From NCBI GenBank assembly GCA_041662125.1, contig JBAZTA010000002.1, positions 204,154 through 268,153 on the forward strand: a stretch of DNA of 64,000 nucleotides. The letters are read 5' to 3'. Of this stretch, positions 9,893 to 42,377 are shown in pieces (positions within the stretch are counted from its first letter, which is position 1; each line of letters opens with the position of its first letter). Under the pieces are notes generated by a model that saw only the letters and a program-made list of their open reading frames with translations, did no database searches and was not told the origin of the DNA. This DNA comes from Candidatus Omnitrophota bacterium (GTDB lineage Bacteria; Omnitrophota; Gorgyraeia; Gygaellales; Profunditerraquicolaceae). The position numbers and the translations under genes are program-made.

Positions 9893-10009
9893 CTTATATC
9901 ACGCCCTATAATTTTATTACTGGTAAAAGAGTTTTAGGTTTATAATAGAAAATACCCGGCCTTATAGGAAAGGCCGGTATGCCACTTTCTGTGGTAAAAG
10001 GGGGGGTGT

Positions 10010-10516
10010 ATGAAGACAATACGTGTTTTTATCCTGTTGCTGTTTGCTTTTGCGGCTTGTAGGGGTGTTTCTCTGGGCAAGAATTATGATGCGGTTATTC
10101 AGGATGGGAAGAAAGTTACGCTTGAATATACGGTGACGGTAGAAGGCAAGGTCGTTGATAGTTCAAAGAAACACGGCCCGTTGCGGTATACTCATGGTAA
10201 AGCCTCTGAGATCATTCCCGGCCTGGCCCGTCAGCTCAAAGGTTTGCGCGCCGGTGATTCTAAAACCATTATCGTTACGCCTCAGGAAGGTTATGGTGAA
10301 ATAAATCCGAAAGCATTTAAGCAGATCGATCGTAAGAATTTACCGAAGGCGTTAGAAGTAAAGCTTGATAAATATATCCAGATTAAAAGATCTGACGGGA
10401 AGATCATTTCTGCCCGGATCGCGGATATAAAAGATACGTTCGTGGTTTTAGATTATAATCATCCGTTTGCCAGTAAAACCTTATATTTTAAGGTTAAAGT
10501 AGTGTCCGTTAAGTGA
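10010..10516 (+). CDS. FKBP-type peptidyl-prolyl cis-trans isomerase, secreted
   Basis: Signal peptide; VTLEYTVTVEGKVVDSS FKBP motif; strong SD gggggg. Confidence 0.8.
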   Translation: MKTIRVFILLLFAFAACRGVSLGKNYDAVIQDGKKVTLEYTVTVEGKVVDSSKKHGPLRYTHGKASEIIPGLARQLKGLRAGDSKTIIVTPQEGYGEINPKAFKQIDRKNLPKALEVKLDKYIQIKRSDGKIISARIADIKDTFVVLDYNHPFASKTLYFKVKVVSVK

Positions 10517-11364
10517 GGATAGTTGGCAAAGTAGTGTTTATTATTTTTATGGTTCTTTCCTTGTTGGTGGCGGCTTCTGCTGAAGAGCAGCCATCGCCAA
10601 GCCCTGCGTTGTATCAGAAAGGCATTACTTTTGCAGCTGAGGGTAAATTTAGAGAAGCGCAGGAAGAATTTAAGAAAGCCTTGGAAGTCAAAAAAAACGA
10701 TTCAACGTCTTTGAGTTCATTAAAAGTCCTGCGTGACTTTGAGGAAGGAACGATAAATAAAGACTTTACGCTTTTATTCTTTAAAGGGATCGATTTGTTA
10801 GTGCAAAACCAGCCTCAGCAAGCCATCACGGAATTGCAGAAAGCGCTTTTGATCAAACAGGATTATGTCAGGATCTACAATATCCTGGGCATGGCATATG
10901 CTTCCAGCGGTAATTCAGAGCAGGCACTCACTCATTTTAAAAAAGCGTTACAAATAAATCCATCCTATACCGACGCGATCTATAACCTGGCTTCTTACTA
11001 TGCGTCCCTGGAAAACTACCAGCAGGCACTCGAATGTTATCAGATAATCATCGCTCTTGATCCTGATTCCGCTGATGCTTATGCTAATATTGCCGCGGCA
11101 TACGCTGCACTTGATCAATACCCCCAGGGTATCGCGTATTACCAGAAATTAATCGCCCTTAATCCTCAAAACGGCCACGCGTATTATAATTTAGGCTTGG
11201 CTTATTTTATGACTGATGATTTCTTCCGGGCGCGGGAAAGCCTGGTGTCTGCTCAAAAAATATTTCAACAAAAGAATGATCAAGAGAATGTAGCGGTTGC
11301 AGAGGCGTATCTTGAGAAATTGAAGCAGTTTGAAAATAAATGGGGTTCTCCCGGAGGCAGTTGA
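10513..11364 (+). CDS. TPR-repeat protein, secreted
   Basis: Signal peptide; repeated AxxYYNLGxAY / ALxxNP TPR units. Confidence 0.75.
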   Translation: MRIVGKVVFIIFMVLSLLVAASAEEQPSPSPALYQKGITFAAEGKFREAQEEFKKALEVKKNDSTSLSSLKVLRDFEEGTINKDFTLLFFKGIDLLVQNQPQQAITELQKALLIKQDYVRIYNILGMAYASSGNSEQALTHFKKALQINPSYTDAIYNLASYYASLENYQQALECYQIIIALDPDSADAYANIAAAYAALDQYPQGIAYYQKLIALNPQNGHAYYNLGLAYFMTDDFFRARESLVSAQKIFQQKNDQENVAVAEAYLEKLKQFENKWGSPGGS

Positions 11365-12950: not shown

Positions 12951-13074
12951 CAAGACCGGGTCTTAGAAAGAGATATGATACACCCGGGCATATCGGAATG
13001 CCCGGTGTGCCGCTTTCTGCGGCAGACCCGGTCTTGGCTGGTATTAAAAACTGCTTGTTAAGACCGGGTCTTAT
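12951..13074. repeat. cluster of three copies of 13-bp palindrome AAGACC(S)GGTCTT plus hairpin/CTTTCTGCGGC element
   Basis: Exact palindromes at 12951-12963, 13024-13035, 13062-13074; family-B element 12983-13023 between. Confidence 0.75.
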
Positions 13075-18567: not shown

Positions 18568-18685
18568 AAGACCCGGTCTTGACTTGTGGTTTTTAATTAT
18601 TGATAAGACCGGGTCTTAAAGTGGAACTAACTAAAAAGACCGGGTCTTGGATTTGAATCTTAGGTTATAGAAAAGACCCGGTCTT
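18568..18685. repeat. four copies of palindrome AAGACC(S)GGTCTT
   Basis: Copies at 18568-18580, 18605-18617, 18636-18648, 18673-18685 between convergent gene and tRNA-Leu. Confidence 0.8.
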
Positions 18686-18764: not shown

Positions 18765-18851
18765 CTGGTGCCGGGAGAGGGAGTTGAACCCACACGAGGT
18801 TGCCCTCAACAGCTTTTGAGGCTGCCGCGTCTGCCATTTCGCCATCCCGGC
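18765..18851 (-). tRNA. tRNA-Leu (anticodon CAA)
   Basis: Reverse complement gives GCCGGGA acceptor stem, anticodon loop CUCAAAA, long variable arm, ...CCCGGCACCA 3' end with encoded CCA. Confidence 0.8.
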
Positions 18852-19026
18852 GCAACCAAAAACAAAATTTTTTTAAGTTGACGCCATCTATTTTATATTC
18901 TAAAATAGGAAAGGTCAACTAATATAATATCTCATCATAATTTCTTTCCAATTCTCTGCGGTATATATAAGTATCCCTGGCGGGAAGTGACGGCGGGGTG
19001 CTTCGATAGTATTTTAAAGTTCAAAT

Positions 19027-19066
19027 GGGGCTGTAGCTCAGCTGGGAGAGCACTTGCATGGCATGC
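19027..19066 (+). other. 5' 40-nt fragment of tRNA-Ala (direct repeat of 22144-22183); putative att remnant
   Basis: Identical 40 nt GGGGCTGTAGCTCAGCTGGGAGAGCACTTGCATGGCATGC, then diverges into AT-rich DNA. Confidence 0.7.
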
Positions 19067-19186
19067 GACGAGATAAGACGAAGAAATACGCTTAGCTCAT
19101 CGCTGATTTATTTCTAAGGCTCTACAAGGTTTTACAGATTTTATAGAGGCTTTAGTTAAAAATTGATAAATATATTAAGATAGTCA

Positions 19187-19741
19187 ATGGATAAGAATCC
19201 TTTTAGTACTATTCTTGGAGCTTCTGTTAATGTTTATAAGGAAGAGTTTGGGGAAGAAGCTTACCTGGAAGGGCTTGCCAATAAATTTGTGCAAAAAGAT
19301 CCCAAGAACTTTTCTTCAGTCCGCAGTATAGTTTTAGATGTTCACTTTCGGTTAGAAACCATTCTAAATATTATCCTAAAATGGTATCTCTGTTTTTATA
19401 ATAAAAAAAAGATATTTTTTTCAAAGGAAGACTACTATAAACTTGGTGATGTTGTTAGTAATATTGATTACGCTAAAAAATTAGCGATTGTTGAGCTGTT
19501 AAAAATTTTTAATAAGCAAACAGTTAAAATATTCTGGAAAACTAATGACTTGCGCGTCGCCTTTTCCCATAATTATAAAAAAGATAGCCCTAAGTATCTA
19601 TTCTATGGAGAATCTATTTTTAAACGTAAATCGGTTGACAAGTTAATAGACGGCTTAGAATTAGTGAGAGAGGAATTTCTTAGTTTTATTGTAAGTGAAG
19701 ATGATGCTTCTCCAGAAGTGAATCCCGAATTCCCGGTCTAA
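19187..19741 (+). CDS. hypothetical protein, possible HEPN/Abi-like (Rx4H motif)
   Basis: AT-rich ORF in islet; LRVAFSHN contains Rx4H, the HEPN/Abi_2-type motif; otherwise unrecognised. Confidence 0.4.
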   Translation: MDKNPFSTILGASVNVYKEEFGEEAYLEGLANKFVQKDPKNFSSVRSIVLDVHFRLETILNIILKWYLCFYNKKKIFFSKEDYYKLGDVVSNIDYAKKLAIVELLKIFNKQTVKIFWKTNDLRVAFSHNYKKDSPKYLFYGESIFKRKSVDKLIDGLELVREEFLSFIVSEDDASPEVNPEFPV

Positions 19742-19800
19742 AATCATTCCTCTGGACAGCAAGATCTTTAGGGTGGAATATAATTCAAGGAGTGATACTT

Positions 19801-19953
19801 ATGGATACTAAATGGATAATAGGATTAGTAGTGGTGGTAATTTGTGCTTTTATACCTGTAATATTCAAGAAGAAATCTAAGCAAAGCCAGTCCCAAGAGC
19901 AAAAAGTTAAGGGCGAAGGTTATCAGAAGCAATCTCAAAAGCAGGGAGAGTGA
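19801..19953 (+). CDS. small single-TM protein (50 aa)
   Basis: aggagtga SD then ATG; MDTKWIIGLVVVVICAFIPVIF TM helix then K/Q/E-rich tail; below the ORF-track length cutoff. Confidence 0.3.
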   Translation: MDTKWIIGLVVVVICAFIPVIFKKKSKQSQSQEQKVKGEGYQKQSQKQGE

Positions 19954-19954
19954 T

Positions 19955-20263
19955 ATGTTAAATGATAAGCAGGGACAGAATCAGCAGCAAAATGTAGCTA
20001 TTGGTTTTGAAAAGCATGGAGTAGTGACTGAAGTCCATTGCCCGTTTTATACCGATGAACGCACAACGTATTTAAAAGATCGCCGAGATTATGGCAGTGG
20101 GCAAGAAGGGCTTCTGAATAAAAAATTATATTTCGATTCTCAATTAGTTAGAGTTATTGTTTATGAAGGGAAAGCAAGACCTATTTGCCATCTCTTTGAT
20201 AGTGCTTCGAGAAAGTGTCTGAAGAAAAAAGAAGAAAATACGCAGTGCCACATAGTAATGTAG
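19955..20263 (+). CDS. hypothetical Cys/His-containing small protein
   Basis: HCPFY ... CHLFD ... RKCLKK ... QCH possible metal-binding residues; start overlaps previous stop (ATGA-type coupling). Confidence 0.4.
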   Translation: MLNDKQGQNQQQNVAIGFEKHGVVTEVHCPFYTDERTTYLKDRRDYGSGQEGLLNKKLYFDSQLVRVIVYEGKARPICHLFDSASRKCLKKKEENTQCHIVM

Positions 20264-20281
20264 CCAAAAGCGTTTATCACT

Positions 20282-20995
20282 ATGGAATTACTTAACCCAA
20301 AAAAATCCCCTGAACAAAATTTATCTGATTACATCAAATTCTTCAAAAAACACCCTGCCATTTCTATAGTTGTTATCGTAGTAATATTGGCTTTGTCGGG
20401 ATGGAATATTTATTTGCAATATACTGGTAAGAGAATTAATGAATGTGAACAGACAATCAGCGCATTAAACAGAGAACTTGAAGCTAAGAGGGCAGAAATT
20501 CAGCGGCTCGAAACTCAATTGGTGCCGTTTAGAACTTTTGCATTGGAACATTATCCAGGGTCAGAAGCTGAGGCTTTGGCTAAGCTTGCTCAAAAAATCA
20601 CAGATATGGAGTTAACAATTGTCGCGTTGCGTGATTATGGTGATATCGCTAAGCTTGGTCCTATGGGAAGCGCAATAGTTGGCGGCAGAGGTATTAAATT
20701 TTCAACTCCACTTTCTCGAATGATGGAAGGAACTTGTGAAATAACCGGTGATCAAGCTGTCTTTATTCTCACCCCTGAAGCAGAAACTAAGAGTATGGCA
20801 GTTATAGAAAAGTTTCCTAATTTTCCATTCGCTTATTATCATGTTGCGCTCTGTTTTAGAGCGCGTAATGATAATAAATGGAGAACCTACGCTCAAAAGG
20901 CGAAAGAGATTTTTGAAATAACTACAACTATAGGTGGGCATGTCAAAAGTCATGATGAAGCTTTAGAAAATATTTTAATTTTCTTAAGACAATGA
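20282..20995 (+). CDS. hypothetical membrane protein (N-terminal TM, coiled coil)
   Basis: TM helix ISIVVIVVILALSGW then heptad-like region ALNRELEAKRAEIQRLETQL. Confidence 0.5.
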   Translation: MELLNPKKSPEQNLSDYIKFFKKHPAISIVVIVVILALSGWNIYLQYTGKRINECEQTISALNRELEAKRAEIQRLETQLVPFRTFALEHYPGSEAEALAKLAQKITDMELTIVALRDYGDIAKLGPMGSAIVGGRGIKFSTPLSRMMEGTCEITGDQAVFILTPEAETKSMAVIEKFPNFPFAYYHVALCFRARNDNKWRTYAQKAKEIFEITTTIGGHVKSHDEALENILIFLRQ

Positions 20996-21696
20996 ACGAT
21001 CTCATCTTGAAGTTTATAACTGAAATTCCTATTGATTATTCTTGGTTTTTTAGCACGCTGGCGCAGTCTTTAGCTGCTTTGATTAGCATCGGTGGTGTGT
21101 TTATCATCTATAGATTGCAGCTTTTAGAGAATGAGAATAAAGAAACAGTGCAGAATCTGCAAAGATATTTGTACCCATCTCAGCCAGAAAAACTTTTTTA
21201 TCTAACTAAAAGAGAAACTTTAACACGCGCTGATTATGAATGGAAAAGTTGTGAATCTCAAATAAAAGAACAGACGTTAGTAATTAAAGACATAGATCAA
21301 AGAATTAAAAATGAAAAGGAAGAAACTAAAGTACTTGAGAGCCGTAAGTCAGATTGTACTAACATTATAGGGTGGAATAAAGAAAGAATCTCTGGTTTTG
21401 ATGAAAGAGTATCAAAGCTTGTTGGGGGAGAAAAGTATAAAAACACTATTCAATGGGCTGCTTTTATTACATTTTTGTTTATGATGATCGTTTTCGTTTT
21501 AAGTTTGTTAGGTTTGATTTTTAGTAAATATCTTGAGAATAATATAGGGGTTGGAAATGAAGCTGTGCTTAACATATTTATTCTTTTGCTTGGGGCTTTA
21601 ACACAATTAACGTTGTGCTGCATGGCAGGACTTAATATTGGTAGGCCCGCTCTAAAAGCAATTTCTGAAAATACTGCTAAAAACAAAGCACTGTAG
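20992..21696 (+). CDS. hypothetical membrane protein (1 N-terminal + 2 C-terminal TM, coiled coil)
   Basis: Overlaps previous gene by 4 nt; TM segments at N- and C-termini. Confidence 0.5.
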   Translation: MNDLILKFITEIPIDYSWFFSTLAQSLAALISIGGVFIIYRLQLLENENKETVQNLQRYLYPSQPEKLFYLTKRETLTRADYEWKSCESQIKEQTLVIKDIDQRIKNEKEETKVLESRKSDCTNIIGWNKERISGFDERVSKLVGGEKYKNTIQWAAFITFLFMMIVFVLSLLGLIFSKYLENNIGVGNEAVLNIFILLLGALTQLTLCCMAGLNIGRPALKAISENTAKNKAL

Positions 21697-21787
21697 AATA
21701 TACTTATTTCTTGCTTTATCGGCGAGATGTAAATATTCCTACCTTGCCGATTTGGCAAAATAATTCTGACGGAAAGACGTTAAATAA

Positions 21788-22018
21788 TTGAGCGCTTACG
21801 TGTTCCCGGAAAAGGAGGGCTCAAGAACAACAACCAATAGGAAAATTTTCTCGACAGTAGTAAGAAAAGCAGGTATAATTAACTTCAGTTTTAGATATCA
21901 CGATTTGAAGCATACTTACGTAAGTCAGCTTATCGTTTTCGGCGTAGACATAATTTTAAATACATATGCGCATAGTAGCGAAGCTCGAAAGCAGAAGGCT
22001 GTTAAACGATCTATATGA
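21788..22018 (+). pseudogene. tyrosine recombinase/integrase C-terminal fragment
   Basis: HDLKHTYVSQLIVFGVDIILNTYAHSS matches catalytic R-H-x-x-R...H...Y region pattern (HDLRHTxAS...G.D...LGHSS); only 76 aa, no N-terminal domains. Confidence 0.6.
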
Positions 22019-22143
22019 GCGATTAGCTGCGACTGCGTTGCCAGAAGCGTCAAGGATTGATGAAAAATTGATAGAGTCAATTAAAGAGATAATACCTGCC
22101 AATATTGATGTTCTTTTCTAAATCTTTGATAATATAATATTAA

Positions 22144-22219
22144 GTAATAATTTGGGGCTGTAGCTCAGCTGGGAGAGCACTTGCATGGCATGCAAGGGGT
22201 CAGGAGTTCGATCCTCCTC
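22144..22219 (+). tRNA. tRNA-Ala (anticodon GGC)
   Basis: GGGGCUGUAGCUCAGCUGGGAGAGCACUUGCAUGGCAUGCAAG... G3:U70 Ala identity element, TΨC GGTTCGATCC-like arm, encoded CCA. Confidence 0.9.
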
Positions 22220-22499
22220 AGCTCCACCAACTTTTCCCGACAAGGGAAAAGTTGGTGGACGTCGCAATGAGCGTTGCGAGGCGACAAGCCGAGCAGCGAA
22301 TGCGACGCCACCACCTAAATACATTCCGACAAAGGAAAATTAAAGCAAGTAACTATAGGGGACGTTTCAACGTCCCCTATTTCATTGTAGTAGCATTCAA
22401 AAAACCGCTGAATATACTATAAAAGTGATATAATAATAAAATCGTTAAGTAATGTATCTTTGGGATTATTCAATTAGTGATAAGATTTCAAGACCGGGT

Positions 22500-22592
22500 C
22501 TTATCAATAATAAAGTACGACCGTTCAAGACCCGGTCTTGTTACAGGGCACTACCTGTCAAGACCCGGTCTTATGAATCATGTTTACCCCGA
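22500..22592. repeat. three copies of palindrome AAGACC(S)GGTCTT (composite unit)
   Basis: 22500-22512, 22547-22559, 22580-22592. Confidence 0.8.
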
Positions 22593-22646
22593 GCTTGTCA
22601 AGGGGGGGCTTATTGGAAGCAGTGGAGGAATAAACGGAGGTAAGAG

Positions 22647-23087
22647 ATGAGAAATGTAATTGTATTCATGCTATGTCTATTTTTTATTTCGATGGTTAAA
22701 GTTGGCCTAACCGAAGAGCCGCGGAGCGTTAAGCCAATTGATGAATCCAAAGCTTTAGGCCCGCTTGGGAAGAGTTTTTATAATGAAATAGCTAAATTAG
22801 ATAAAACGGAACAAAAAATTATTTATTCTGCTTATATTTCAGGTTTTTTAGATGGTGTAATATCTCAAAAAGCACAGGAAATTAATGCAAAAGAATTAAG
22901 TTTTGTTAATAATTTTCTTGAGATTTGTAAGGGGATGACAGAAGAACAGCTCGCCGATATGATGTTAGAATATTATGAAAAAAATCCTGGTGATAGAGAT
23001 CAAATGCCTATGCTTGTTCTAACCGTAGTAATTCCTAGATTAAAAAAAGGATTATCTCCTTATGGGCCACAAGAATTGAGGAATTAA
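22647..23087 (+). CDS. hypothetical secreted protein (AT-rich)
   Basis: Signal peptide; flanked on both sides by palindrome clusters; SD ggaggtaaga. Confidence 0.5.
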   Translation: MRNVIVFMLCLFFISMVKVGLTEEPRSVKPIDESKALGPLGKSFYNEIAKLDKTEQKIIYSAYISGFLDGVISQKAQEINAKELSFVNNFLEICKGMTEEQLADMMLEYYEKNPGDRDQMPMLVLTVVIPRLKKGLSPYGPQELRN

Positions 23088-23096
23088 CGCAATTTT

Positions 23097-23146
23097 AAGA
23101 CCGGGTCTTATCAATGATAAAGCACTACCTGTCAAGACCCGGTCTT
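23097..23146. repeat. two copies of palindrome AAGACC(S)GGTCTT
   Basis: 23097-23109, 23134-23146; near-identical to unit at 22500-22592. Confidence 0.8.
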
Positions 23147-23180
23147 ATGAACTATGTGATTATTTTACCTGGGAGGTTCT

Positions 23181-23795
23181 ATGTCAACTTGTCCATATAG
23201 TAGCGGCCCTGCGTCATATGTACCGTTTCTTGTGCCTGTCGTGTGGTTTGGGGTTTTTTTCTCGATCATGTATTTTATGAATAAGAAAAATAAAGAAGCC
23301 CTTAAGAATCTGTCTAGTTGTTTAAAGGGAAGCCTTTCTAAATCATTTTTCTTGAACGCCTTTGAAGGGCAGTATGAAGGTTTGCCGTTACAAATTTCTC
23401 TGACCCCCGGTAGTAAAAATACCCCTCCGTATTTAAGGATAAGCTTAACAAAAGAATCGACGTTTAAATTAACTATCTATAAAGAATCGGGCTTGAGTAT
23501 CCTTGGAGAGAAACTCGGGTTAGTCCACGAAGTTAAAGTCAATGATGAGGCTTTTGATAAAGAGTTTTTGATCTTTTCCAATAATGCAAACCGCGCTATG
23601 AGTTATCTTGCCGGCAGTATAGAGAAGAGAAACGCGATACGGGAATTATTCAACCATGGTTTTAATGCTGTCATTATTGACGGTAAAAGAATTTTAATTC
23701 AGAAGCCACGCTATAATGTAGATTATGACCTTCAGCCGCTCCAGGTAACTTCTGCGTTGCAAAAACTCGGTATTTTAGTGAAGGGGATATTCTAA
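23181..23795 (+). CDS. hypothetical membrane protein (AT-rich)
   Basis: N-terminal TM helix VPFLVPVVWFGVFFSIMYF; SD gggagg. Confidence 0.5.
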   Translation: MSTCPYSSGPASYVPFLVPVVWFGVFFSIMYFMNKKNKEALKNLSSCLKGSLSKSFFLNAFEGQYEGLPLQISLTPGSKNTPPYLRISLTKESTFKLTIYKESGLSILGEKLGLVHEVKVNDEAFDKEFLIFSNNANRAMSYLAGSIEKRNAIRELFNHGFNAVIIDGKRILIQKPRYNVDYDLQPLQVTSALQKLGILVKGIF

Positions 23796-23843
23796 GACCG
23801 GGTCTTATCAATAATAAAGTACGACCGTTCAAGACCCGGTCTT
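23794..23843. repeat. two copies of palindrome AAGACC(S)GGTCTT
   Basis: 23794-23806, 23831-23843; unit identical to 22500-22559. Confidence 0.8.
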
Positions 23844-23893
23844 GTTGCTAACTTTCCCTTGTGGATACGGGTAGCCTAAGGTATAATTATTTT

Positions 23894-42287: not shown

Positions 42288-42377
42288 TAAGACCCGGTCT
42301 TGGCTGTAATTTACCTTACACCCCGCGCAGAAGTGAATTGCGCGGGTGTGCGGCTTTCTGCCGCAAGACCGGGTCTT
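42288..42377. repeat. palindrome AAGACC(S)GGTCTT x2 flanking hairpin/CTTTCTGCCGC element
   Basis: 42288-42300 and 42365-42377; family-B element 42320-42363 between. Confidence 0.8.

What the first reader, a model, noticed from the sequence alone, without database searches (positions are those of the whole stretch)
19027..22219. Decayed integrated element: 40-nt tRNA-Ala 5' direct repeat, AT-rich cargo, integrase remnant next to intact tRNA-Ala
The first 40 nt of tRNA-Ala(GGC) (to the anticodon loop) are duplicated exactly 3.1 kb upstream of the intact gene. The DNA between them drops to roughly 35% GC and ends with a 76-aa fragment carrying the tyrosine-recombinase catalytic-region motif (HDLKHT...AHSS) immediately upstream of the tRNA. 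This is the classic footprint of site-specific integration into a tRNA gene followed by integrase decay. The use of the 5' half as the core is unusual.
Basis: partly seen in the sequence, partly recalled or inferred. Interest (0 to 1): 0.7.

Follow-up and report, generated by a model that had tools for sequence, protein, structure and literature searches.

The report
Decayed mobile element in tRNA-Ala gene
A 3.1-kb stretch of foreign DNA in an Omnitrophota genome is the broken-down remnant of a small mobile element that inserted into a tRNA-Ala gene from the unusual 5' side, and intact relatives in other genomes show that this reversed mode is the rule for its integrase lineage.

Summary
An exact 41-nt direct repeat (19026-19066 and 22153-22193) covers nt 1-40 of tRNA-Ala(GGC). 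The 3,086 nt between the copies are 34.9% GC, against 43.8% for the window. The insert ends in an integrase pseudogene.

- The pseudogene spans 21770-22139. It matches only residues 284-412 of a 413-aa integrase (P0007), with an in-frame stop, two indels and a frameshift.
- In six related Omnitrophota genomes tRNA-Leu(CAA) and tRNA-Ala(GGC) are divergent neighbours 67-218 nt apart. Here the 5' fragment lies 175 nt from tRNA-Leu, so it is the displaced host half at the ancestral position.
- P0007 sits in an intact 8.96-kb element at the same site of another Omnitrophota genome (L086), with identical geometry and homologous arms.
- In all eight further loci carrying an integrase of this lineage, the integrase gene ends between 10 nt inside and 32 nt upstream of the 5' end of a co-oriented tRNA. 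Five of them have a displaced 5' fragment upstream.

5'-side targeting is rare in general but has precedent. The window copy is an immobilised remnant: both att ends, five cargo genes of unknown function, and no working integrase. It is a new member of a known kind, of modest interest.

The parts
18766..18851 (-). tRNA-Leu(CAA), the host gene that anchors the ancestral position of tRNA-Ala (context, not part of the element)
   Evidence: ARAGORN. The divergent Leu/Ala pair is conserved in relatives with 67-218 nt gaps.
19026..19066 (+). attL core: displaced host 5' part of tRNA-Ala(GGC) (nt 1-40 plus 1 upstream base), the left copy of the 41-nt direct repeat
   Evidence: Exact repeat D7. It lies 175 nt from tRNA-Leu, matching the spacing in empty-site relatives. 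L086 has the same arrangement.
19067..19186 (+). Left (P') arm of the element. The arm-type motif TTTAGTTAAAAATTGATAAATA lies at 19151-19172 (AATTGATA at 19161, 95 nt from the core). The second tandem copy is degenerate.
   Evidence: About 69% identical to the L086 left arm beyond the repeat. The alignment with L086 and L088 shows a conserved TTTAG..AAATTGAT block. Motif positions are 94-96 nt from the core in all three.
19187..19741 (+). Cargo ORF1 (184 aa), predicted all-helical, function unknown
   Evidence: ORF list. No Pfam, NCBIfam or PADLOC hit; weak PHROG_5483 hit. The AF2 model has pLDDT 44 and is unusable. No relative in IMG/VR or PLSDB.
19792..19953 (+). Cargo ORF2 (53 aa), small single-pass membrane protein
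   Evidence: ORF list. Only weak hits driven by the transmembrane segment.
19955..20263 (+). Cargo ORF3 (102 aa), function unknown
   Evidence: ORF list. No significant family hit.
20282..20995 (+). Cargo ORF4 (237 aa): N-terminal membrane helix, long coiled coil, small TPR-like C-terminal domain
   Evidence: Homologues P0003 (80%), P0004 and P0005 (51%) and P0006 (35%). P0004 and P0005 lie in low-GC contexts with restriction-modification genes, AAA_21/DUF4276 and FRG genes. AF2 model pLDDT 79. Foldseek finds only weak TPR matches.
20992..21696 (+). Cargo ORF5 (234 aa), membrane and coiled-coil protein; overlaps ORF4 by 4 nt
   Evidence: ORF list. No relatives in IMG/VR or JGI metagenome contigs.
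21770..22139 (+). Tyrosine-integrase pseudogene. It corresponds only to residues 284-412 of the 413-aa integrase P0007. It has an in-frame stop at 21785-21787, a 2-aa insertion, a 14-aa deletion and a frameshift near 21980-22003.
   Evidence: tblastn of P0007 against the window, E=4e-31, 59% identity over residues 284-373 and then a second frame for 365-412. HMMER search. Pfam and PHROG hits.
22054..22076 (+). Right (P) arm-type sites: GGATTGATGAAAAATTGATAGAG, two copies 11 nt apart inside the integrase 3' coding region. The second copy lies 88 nt from the tRNA start, as in L086.
   Evidence: Motif positions and right-arm sequences and alignment. The motifs covary between elements: AATTGATR, TGGACAC or GTCACA.
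22105..22138 (+). Promoter-like sequence supplied by the element, just upstream of the hybrid tRNA: TTGATG-17-GATAAT, and a perfect TATAAT at 22133-22138
   Evidence: Promoter scan. A conserved TTTGAAAAT or TTTGATAAT block lies upstream of the tRNA in 5 of the 8 right arms aligned. Function is inferred.
22153..22229 (+). attR core plus intact hybrid tRNA-Ala(GGC): a 5' part supplied by the element (right copy of the repeat, 22153-22193) joined to the host 3' part
   Evidence: ARAGORN and repeat D7. The tRNA is 76/76 identical to that of L086. The G3:U70 pair is visible in the sequence.

Best explanation
The region is the immobilised remnant of a small integrative element, of a family about 9-11 kb long in Omnitrophota. 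It entered the chromosome by tyrosine-integrase site-specific recombination with the 5' half of the tRNA-Ala(GGC) gene.

How it worked (inferred from anatomy and from intact relatives): the circular element's attP held a copy of tRNA nt 1 to about 40, placed directly after the 3' end of its integrase gene. Strand exchange occurred in or next to the anticodon stem-loop. That stem-loop is a 7-3-7 inverted repeat, CTTGCAT-GGC-ATGCAAG. Tandem arm-type sites on both sides of the core are the expected binding sites for the integrase N-terminal domain.

Integration left the host promoter and the host 5' half stranded as attL (19026-19066). It created a hybrid but intact tRNA at attR (22154-22229). 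The 5' half of that tRNA, and necessarily its promoter, come from the element.

Later a deletion removed the backbone (regulator, replication genes, excisionase) and integrase codons 1-283. What remains is the left arm, five co-oriented cargo genes of unknown function, and the last third of the integrase gene, which has since acquired a stop codon, a frameshift and two indels. The element can no longer excise on its own.

Shown: the repeat, the insertion relative to empty sites, homology of both ends to intact elements, and the pseudogene lesions. Inferred: the crossover position, the role of the arm sites, the promoter, and the single-deletion history.
For: Repeat and tRNA. Low GC.

Empty sites: six relatives have the Leu/Ala pair 67-218 nt apart. 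The window spacing from tRNA-Leu to the fragment is 175 nt.

Integrase remnant: it matches P0007 residues 284-412 with four disabling lesions.

Intact counterpart L086 at the syntenic site (GDSL lipase, tRNA-Leu, element, tRNA-Ala, nfo, leuS): 41-nt 5' fragment at 2289-2329, an 8.96-kb element carrying an HTH regulator, a DnaB-like helicase and an HTH_17 excisionase, integrase at 10001-11242, and tRNA-Ala 8 nt after the integrase stop.

Homologous ends: window 19067-19105 matches L086 2330-2367, and window 21769-22235 matches L086 10849-11332 at 68.6% (alignments).

Lineage survey: P0169, P0158, P0157, P0163, P0181 and P0170 all end between -10 and +32 nt from the 5' end of a co-oriented tRNA. 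Displaced 5' fragments (tRNA positions about 1 to 38-41) lie 8.6-10.8 kb upstream in L088, L091, L094 and L095.

Control: more distant IMG/VR integrases mostly face the tRNA 3' end (6 loci); 2 loci are reversed.

Arm-type repeats: they are 11 nt apart in both arms, at conserved distances, and covary between elements.

Foreign cargo: ORF1-5 are absent from all relatives' loci.

Reproducibility: the sequence of the 3.1-kb insert is reproduced 100% by an independent Logan assembly (L002). The remnant ORF is also on an ENA contig at 99%.
Against: No excised circle, empty-site read or recombination assay is available, so recombination is inferred from footprints only. The closest empty-site genomes are distant (RlmN at most 66% identical), so no near-isogenic empty attB was seen. 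The remnant scores below Pfam's gathering cutoff on its own. Both P0007 and the remnant have Lys where tyrosine recombinases have the second catalytic Arg (HDLKHT), and P0007 has GNNN where relatives have GHK, so even the intact relative's activity is unproven. The cargo is not shared with any intact element found, so the single-deletion history is a parsimony argument. The Logan contigs break at the repeat (k=31 is shorter than 41 nt), so they do not independently confirm linkage to the flanks.
Confidence: 0.9

Rival explanations
1. The 3.1-kb unit is a non-autonomous but still mobile element, in the manner of a cis-mobilisable element (CIME). It keeps attL and attR and could be excised or co-mobilised in trans by the integrase and excisionase of an incoming L086-like element that uses the same tRNA-Ala(GGC) site.
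For: Both core copies are still 41/41 identical. The right arm keeps both tandem arm-type sites, with exactly the L086 spacing of 88 nt. The left arm keeps one site at the conserved 95-nt distance. Related intact elements circulate in Omnitrophota of the same study and sample (P0169, L089 from SRR18595301).
Against: The second left-arm repeat is degenerate. No integrase with tRNA-Ala(GGC) specificity was found in the window. The only cognate integrase found is in a genome whose leuS is 70% identical at the DNA level. No attP-type or other truncated copy of this tRNA half was found in IMG/VR or JGI contigs.
Confidence: 0.12
2. The window insertion and the L086 insertion are one ancient event inherited vertically from a common ancestor. 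It stayed intact in the L086 lineage and decayed here. They are not two independent acquisitions of related elements.
For: The chromosomal site, orientation and arm architecture are the same. The integrase remnant and attR region are 68.6% identical to L086 at the DNA level, about the same as leuS at 70%.
Against: Six other relatives have empty sites. The unselected 41-nt fragment is still 100% identical to the tRNA in both genomes, although the flanks are about 30% diverged. The cargo and backbone are completely different. An element intact after that much divergence is unlikely without continued mobility.
Confidence: 0.15
3. There was no integration. The fragment is a tRNA pseudogene left by local tandem duplication of tRNA-Ala, and unrelated AT-rich DNA accumulated between the copies.
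For: Partial tRNA copies can arise by duplication. Four of the five cargo ORFs have no detectable homologues.
Against: Identity stops precisely at the anticodon stem-loop, as in L086, L088, L091, L094 and L095. The DNA on the inner side of both copies is homologous to the att arms of intact elements and to an integrase 3' end.
Confidence: 0.02
4. The arrangement is an assembly artefact: a chimeric join at a 41-nt repeat in a metagenome-assembled genome.
For: The source is a MAG contig. The de Bruijn contigs L001 and L002 break exactly at the repeat.
Against: The same architecture is found in L086, L088, L091, L094 and L095, which come from four other metagenomic samples. The fragment lies at the expected ancestral distance from tRNA-Leu. 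The breaks in L001 and L002 are what a 41-nt repeat produces at k=31, so they are not evidence of a misjoin.
Confidence: 0.02

Closest known systems
Reverse-orientation tRNA-integrating elements (Zhao & Williams 2002, J Bacteriol 184:859; archaeal cases cited in PMC6563490, e.g. CalSub-E1 in tRNA-Ser)
   Same: The element recombines with the 5'-distal part of a tRNA gene. The displaced fragment is the 5' part and lies upstream. The intact gene is a hybrid whose 5' part comes from the element.
   Different: I could not read the 2002 paper (not held), so the detailed comparison rests on its title, on the citation in PMC6563490 and on my memory. Here the property is seen across a whole integrase lineage (window plus 8 loci, on four tRNA species) in a different phylum. 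The integrase stop codon lies between 10 nt inside and 32 nt upstream of the tRNA start.
Conventional anticodon-loop tRNA att sites (the sublocation classes of Williams 2002, NAR 30:866; from memory, phages such as HP1, P22 and L5)
   Same: The identity block ends at the anticodon stem-loop, whose inverted repeat is the presumed core site. The integrase is heterobivalent with arm-type sites. int and xis lie next to att.
   Different: It is the mirror image. The identity block runs from the tRNA 5' end to the anticodon loop, instead of from the loop to the 3' end, so the element must also supply the promoter.
dusA-specific integrases and their islands (Farrugia et al. 2015, PMC4482086)
   Same: The islands target the 5' end of a conserved gene and replace that end with sequence carried by the island. 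Putative promoters are present after integration.
   Different: The target there is a protein-coding gene and the integrase family is different. No sequence relationship was tested here.
Cis-mobilisable elements (CIMEs) and other decayed genomic islands flanked by att sites
   Same: Both att sites and the cargo are retained, while the recombination module is lost.
   Different: Trans-mobilisation is untested here and one arm site is degenerate.

Membership tests
Tyrosine recombinase / phage integrase (PF00589) | Significant sequence homology to the catalytic domain | tested here: met
   Pfam E=0.0015, 18.8 bits, below the 27.1-bit cutoff. PHROG_1 integrase 2.3e-5. The HMMER search of 1.84 billion proteins gives 166 hits at E<=1e-3; the best full-length hit is P0007 at 1e-18. 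P0007 carries PF00589. tblastn of P0007 against the window gives 4e-31.
Tyrosine recombinase / phage integrase (PF00589) | Complete catalytic set (Arg-I, Lys, His-II, Arg-II, His/Trp-III, Tyr) in one open reading frame | tested here: not met
   Only residues equivalent to 284-412 of 413 remain, so Arg-I and the Lys region are absent. Arg-II is Lys (HDLKHT). The His-III region is deleted (14 aa). There is an in-frame stop and a frameshift. It is a pseudogene, not a working enzyme.
tRNA-integrated genomic island (Islander-type definition: intact tRNA, displaced fragment, integrase) | An intact tRNA gene at one end and a direct-repeat fragment of the same tRNA at the other | tested here: met
   tRNA-Ala(GGC) at 22154-22229, with its nt 1-40 repeated exactly at 19027-19066.
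tRNA-integrated genomic island (Islander-type definition: intact tRNA, displaced fragment, integrase) | An integrase gene inside the island, close to one end | tested here: met
   The integrase pseudogene 21770-22139 ends 14 nt before the attR repeat. Intact in the homologous element L086.
tRNA-integrated genomic island (Islander-type definition: intact tRNA, displaced fragment, integrase) | The insert is absent from the same site in related genomes | tested here: met
   Six relatives have the Leu/Ala pair 67-218 nt apart with no insert. Caveat: these are distant relatives (RlmN at most 66% identical).
Reverse-orientation (5'-targeting) integrative elements | The displaced fragment is the 5' part of the target gene and lies upstream of the intact copy, with element DNA abutting the gene's 5' end | tested here: met
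   Window. The same holds in L086, L088, L091, L094 and L095. The integrase 3' end abuts the tRNA 5' end in all 8 related loci.
Prophage | Virion structural, packaging or lysis genes | tested here: not met
   No PHROG structural hits in ORF1-5; only weak hits (E about 7e-4 to 0.2) to spanin and holin families, attributable to coiled-coil or transmembrane segments. The precomputed Pfam annotations list no structural genes in L086, L088, L091, L094 or L095. They show replication, regulatory, TraG-like or defence-type genes.
Cis-mobilisable element (CIME) | Functional attL and attR that a related integrase can recombine in trans | not testable with these tools
   The cores are identical and most arm sites are present, but one left-arm repeat is degenerate. 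This needs read-level junction searches or an excision assay.

The most novel reading that the evidence does not exclude
The remnant belongs to a previously undescribed lineage of tyrosine integrases, in Omnitrophota and their neighbours, that is dedicated to the 5' halves of tRNA genes (Ala-GGC, Ala-CGC, Pro-GGG, Pro-CGG). In this lineage the last roughly 100 nt of the integrase coding sequence serve three roles at once: protein C-terminus, P-arm binding sites, and promoter of the rebuilt tRNA. Integration therefore makes expression of a host tRNA depend on element DNA. That dependence could explain why the 3' end of int survives here when the rest of the backbone has been deleted.
Probability: 0.45. 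Interest if true: 0.5.

Novelty: new member of a known kind. Interest (0 to 1): 0.4.

Why it matters
For this genome the finding is routine annotation. A 3.1-kb island with five orphan genes is foreign DNA locked into tRNA-Ala, and the 5' tRNA fragment should not be annotated as a gene.

The wider value is comparative. The search turned up a coherent set of small integrative elements in Omnitrophota, a poorly studied, largely uncultured phylum. Their integrases consistently use the 5' side of tRNA genes, with well-defined cores, covarying arm sites, and the integrase stop codon a few bases from the tRNA.

Such a set offers two things. It is a natural system for asking how att-site polarity is determined. 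It also supplies candidate integrase/attP/attB triplets for a phylum that has no genetic tools. Island finders that expect the displaced tRNA fragment on the 3' side of the gene could miss these elements; I did not check how any current tool behaves.

Tried and rejected
- Word-indexed protein search with the 76-aa fragment found only itself. The exhaustive HMMER search was needed to find P0007.
- Exact-pattern scans for truncated tRNA-Ala 5' halves (the 40-mer followed by a non-A base) found nothing in IMG/VR or in JGI metagenome contigs.
- Cargo ORF1, ORF4 and ORF5 have no relatives in IMG/VR. ORF5 has none in JGI metagenome contigs. ORF1 has none in PLSDB plasmids.
- Pfam, PHROG, NCBIfam and PADLOC gave no hit above a curated cutoff for ORF1-5; the best were E about 1e-4 to 2e-3.
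- The AF2 model of ORF1 was too poor to use (pLDDT 44). The ORF4 model gave only weak TPR matches. The afdb50 library was unavailable.
- L014 and L016 have 2.9-3.8-kb Leu-Ala gaps and were suspected of holding further insertions. They lack a duplicated 5' half and any homology to the element, so they were set aside.
- The Logan contigs L001 and L002 were examined for evidence of empty or circular forms. Because k=31 is shorter than the 41-nt repeat, the graph breaks at the repeat and carries no such information.
- P0169 comes from the same sequencing run and was considered as a possible resident helper integrase. It belongs to a different MAG and targets tRNA-Pro.
- Zhao & Williams 2002 and Williams 2002 could not be read.


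Full report
**Observation.** ARAGORN finds two tRNA genes in the window: tRNA-Leu(CAA) at 18766-18851 (-) and tRNA-Ala(GGC) at 22154-22229 (+). The repeat finder reports an exact 41-nt direct repeat, 19026-19066 and 22153-22193, spaced 3127 nt (D7). It comprises one upstream base plus tRNA nt 1-40 and stops two bases into the 3' arm of the anticodon stem. By my arithmetic, a chance exact 41-mer pair in 64 kb is expected about 4e-16 times. The 3,086 nt between the copies are 34.9% GC against 43.8% for the window. The three 1-kb blocks at 19-22 kb are the three lowest of the 64 blocks. Five co-oriented, tightly packed ORFs fill 19187-21696, and a 76-aa ORF lies at 21788-22018.

**The integrase remnant.** On its own the 76-aa ORF is a weak integrase match. 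Pfam PF00589 gives E=0.0015 and 18.8 bits, below the 27.1-bit cutoff, and PHROG_1 integrase gives 2.3e-5. A word-indexed search found only the same ORF on an ENA contig.
- An exhaustive HMMER search of 1.84 billion representatives gave 166 hits at E<=1e-3. The best full-length hit was P0007, a 413-aa integrase, at 1e-18.
- tblastn of P0007 against the window (E=4e-31) shows that the remnant is 21770-22139 and corresponds only to residues 284-412.
- The remnant carries an in-frame stop at 21785-21787, a 2-aa insertion, a 14-aa deletion that removes the region where relatives have the conserved Gly-His, and a frameshift near 21980-22003. After the frameshift the reading continues in another frame to within 14 nt of the repeat.
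- No trace of residues 1-283 exists anywhere in the insert.
- 'AHSS' is part of NTYAHSS, the motif around the catalytic tyrosine.

**Organism and empty sites.** The flanking RlmN protein finds Candidatus Omnitrophota MAGs as best relatives, at 66% identity or less. The source contig is annotated as an Omnitrophota MAG. In six relatives (L003, L004, L006, L007, L009, L012) tRNA-Leu(CAA)(-) and tRNA-Ala(GGC)(+) are divergent neighbours separated by 67-218 nt. In the window the 5' fragment starts 175 nt from tRNA-Leu. The fragment is therefore the original host 5' half at its ancestral position, and the 3.1 kb has been inserted into the tRNA gene after nt 40. None of the cargo ORFs has a homologue in any relative's locus or elsewhere in the window.

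**An intact counterpart at the same site.** P0007 is encoded on a 303-kb JGI contig (L086) from another Omnitrophota genome, whose leuS is 70% identical to the window's at the DNA level. The order there is:
- GDSL lipase and a TPR gene
- tRNA-Leu(CAA)(-) at 2036-2120
- an exact 41-nt tRNA-Ala 5' fragment at 2289-2329
- an 8.96-kb element with a divergent HTH regulator, small ORFs, a Phg_2220_C protein, a DnaB-like helicase and an HTH_17 excisionase
- the integrase at 10001-11242
- intact tRNA-Ala(GGC) at 11251-11326, only 8 nt after the integrase stop
- nfo and leuS

This is the window's architecture with the machinery still present. Both ends are homologous. Window 19067-19105 matches L086 2330-2367 (about 69% beyond the repeat), and window 21769-22235 matches L086 10849-11332 at 68.6% (alignments). 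The interior is unrelated.

**A lineage-wide property.** Relatives of P0007 at 33-37% identity were located on their contigs and scanned for tRNAs and repeats. In every locus the integrase gene ends next to the 5' end of a co-oriented tRNA.

| Locus | Integrase | tRNA | Gap, int stop to tRNA start (nt) | 5' fragment (tRNA positions) | Distance upstream |
|---|---|---|---|---|---|
| L088 | P0169 | Pro-GGG | 32 | 1-40 | 8.6 kb |
| L090 | P0158 | Ala-CGC | 4 | contig ends before left end | - |
| L091 | P0157 | Pro-CGG | 6 | -1 to 39 | 9.6 kb |
| L092 | P0157 | Pro-CGG | 6 | contig ends before left end | - |
| L093 | P0163 | Ala-CGC | 3 | none within 10 kb | - |
| L094 | P0181 | Ala-CGC | 7 | 0-38 | 10.8 kb |
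| L095 | P0170 | Ala-CGC | -10 (overlap) | 2-38 | 9.45 kb |

As a control I took more distant integrases from IMG/VR (22-36% identity). There the tRNA lying after the integrase 3' end is usually on the opposite strand, which is the conventional 3'-side arrangement: L106, L108, L112, L116, L124 and L133. Only L114 and L143 are co-oriented. The reversed geometry is therefore characteristic of this lineage and is not a trivial expectation.

**Arm-type sites and promoter.** Each element carries a short motif repeated 11 nt apart in both arms, and the motif differs between elements.
- AATTGATR: window 19161, and 22055/22066; L086 2423/2434 and 11152/11163; L088 2855/2866 and 11223.
- TGGACAC: L091 1805/1816 and 11148/11159; L095 1752/1763 and 10992/11003; L090 1242/1253.
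- GTCACA: L094.

The distances from the core are conserved. On the left they are 94-96 nt in the window, L086 and L088. On the right they are 88 nt in both the window and L086. Covariation of the motif between the two arms is the signature expected of arm-type sites for a heterobivalent integrase, and most of these proteins carry the Int_N domain PF24624. That role is inferred, not shown. The right-arm sites lie inside the integrase's own 3' coding sequence.

Because element DNA abuts the tRNA 5' end, the hybrid tRNA's promoter must be element DNA. The window has TTGATG-17-GATAAT at 22105-22133 and a perfect TATAAT at 22133-22138 (sequence). A TTTGAAAAT or TTTGATAAT block is conserved upstream of the tRNA in 5 of the 8 right arms aligned. 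Promoter function is inferred.

**History (inference).** The simplest account has three steps. An L086-like element carrying ORF1-5 as cargo next to its left arm integrated into tRNA-Ala. One deletion then removed everything from downstream of ORF5 to integrase codon 283. Point lesions accumulated afterwards. The unselected 41-nt fragment is still identical to the tRNA, so the event is recent relative to the roughly 30% divergence between the window and L086 genomes. The alternative, a single ancient insertion shared with L086, is suggested by the similar divergence of int and leuS. The empty sites in other relatives, the perfect repeats and the unrelated interiors argue against it.

**Cargo.** ORF4 (237 aa) has homologues at 35-80% identity. 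Two of them lie in low-GC accessory regions beside restriction-modification genes, AAA_21/DUF4276 and FRG-domain genes. Its AF2 model (pLDDT 79) shows a membrane helix, a long coiled coil and a small TPR-like domain, and Foldseek gives only weak TPR matches. ORF1, ORF2, ORF3 and ORF5 have no informative matches. A defence-related or other accessory role is a guess from ORF4's neighbourhoods only.

**Comparison with what is known.** Integration into tRNA genes with restoration of the gene by an attP-borne fragment is textbook (PMC7192596). [quoted passage not shown] Replacement of a target's 5' end by island DNA is also known for dusA-specific integrases (PMC4482086). I found no paper describing these Omnitrophota elements. 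The window feature is thus a decayed new member of a known, uncommon kind. The lineage-level consistency and the triple use of the integrase 3' end are the only points that might interest a specialist.

**Verdict.** The feature is an immobilised integrative-element remnant in tRNA-Ala(GGC), with 5'-side (reversed) polarity inherited from its integrase lineage. Confidence is 0.9, interest 0.4.

Noticed in passing
window 12952-13072, 18568-18685, 22490-23843, 42289-42377: A REP-like 13-nt palindrome, AAGACCSGGTCTT, occurs 15 times exactly where 0 are expected by chance. The copies are clustered in intergenic DNA, often in pairs 37 nt apart with alternating C or G centres. They flank the tRNA locus on both sides, are absent from the 3.1-kb insert, and are absent from the related loci L086, L088 and L090-L092.
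   Followed up: partly
window 22223-22259: A perfect 16-bp hairpin (TCCACCAACTTTTCCC / GGGAAAAGTTGGTGGA) includes the last 7 nt of tRNA-Ala. It may be a terminator or processing signal, and it has no U-tract (I18).
   Followed up: no
window 22230-23860: This is a second variable, lower-GC (38%) stretch between tRNA-Ala and nfo, with two ORFs (22647-23087 and 23181-23795) and most of the palindromes. In L086 nfo starts 85 nt after the tRNA. The first ORF has a 44%-identical homologue next to tRNA-Leu in L016.
   Followed up: partly
window 21902-21919; P0007 residues 325-330 and 350-353: Both the remnant and the intact integrase P0007 read HDLKHT, with Lys where tyrosine recombinases have the second catalytic Arg. 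P0007 also has GNNN where relatives have GHK. Other lineage members are canonical. Whether P0007 is active is unknown.
   Followed up: partly
L090 1583-1606; L094 11375-11396: Direct repeats of 22-24 nt of the tRNA-Ala(CGC) 3' end lie about 200 nt downstream of the same tRNAs that carry a 5'-side element. They may be scars of conventional 3'-side integrations, which would mean one tRNA was used from both sides.
   Followed up: no
L095 10001-11095 and 11086-11161: The integrase ORF overlaps the first 10 nt of the tRNA-Ala(CGC) gene it targets.
   Followed up: no
L094 641-6798: The 10.8-kb element at tRNA-Ala(CGC) carries defence-type cargo (an AAA_21 ATPase, SIR2_2, Peptidase_M78 with DUF4411) and a second integrase. 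L091 carries a TraG-like coupling protein, FRG and ParE genes. This small element family therefore shuttles varied accessory modules.
   Followed up: no
window 18878-18906 (+) and 18918-18890 (-): Overlapping divergent promoter-like sites lie between tRNA-Leu and the stranded tRNA-Ala fragment. The plus-strand site would now read through the fragment into the co-oriented cargo operon. This is speculative.
   Followed up: no
L001, L002 (Logan SRR18595301): An independent k=31 assembly breaks exactly 30 nt into each copy of the 41-nt repeat, which gives a 3146-nt contig equal to the insert plus 30 nt on each side. This illustrates how such islands fragment short-k assemblies.
   Followed up: yes
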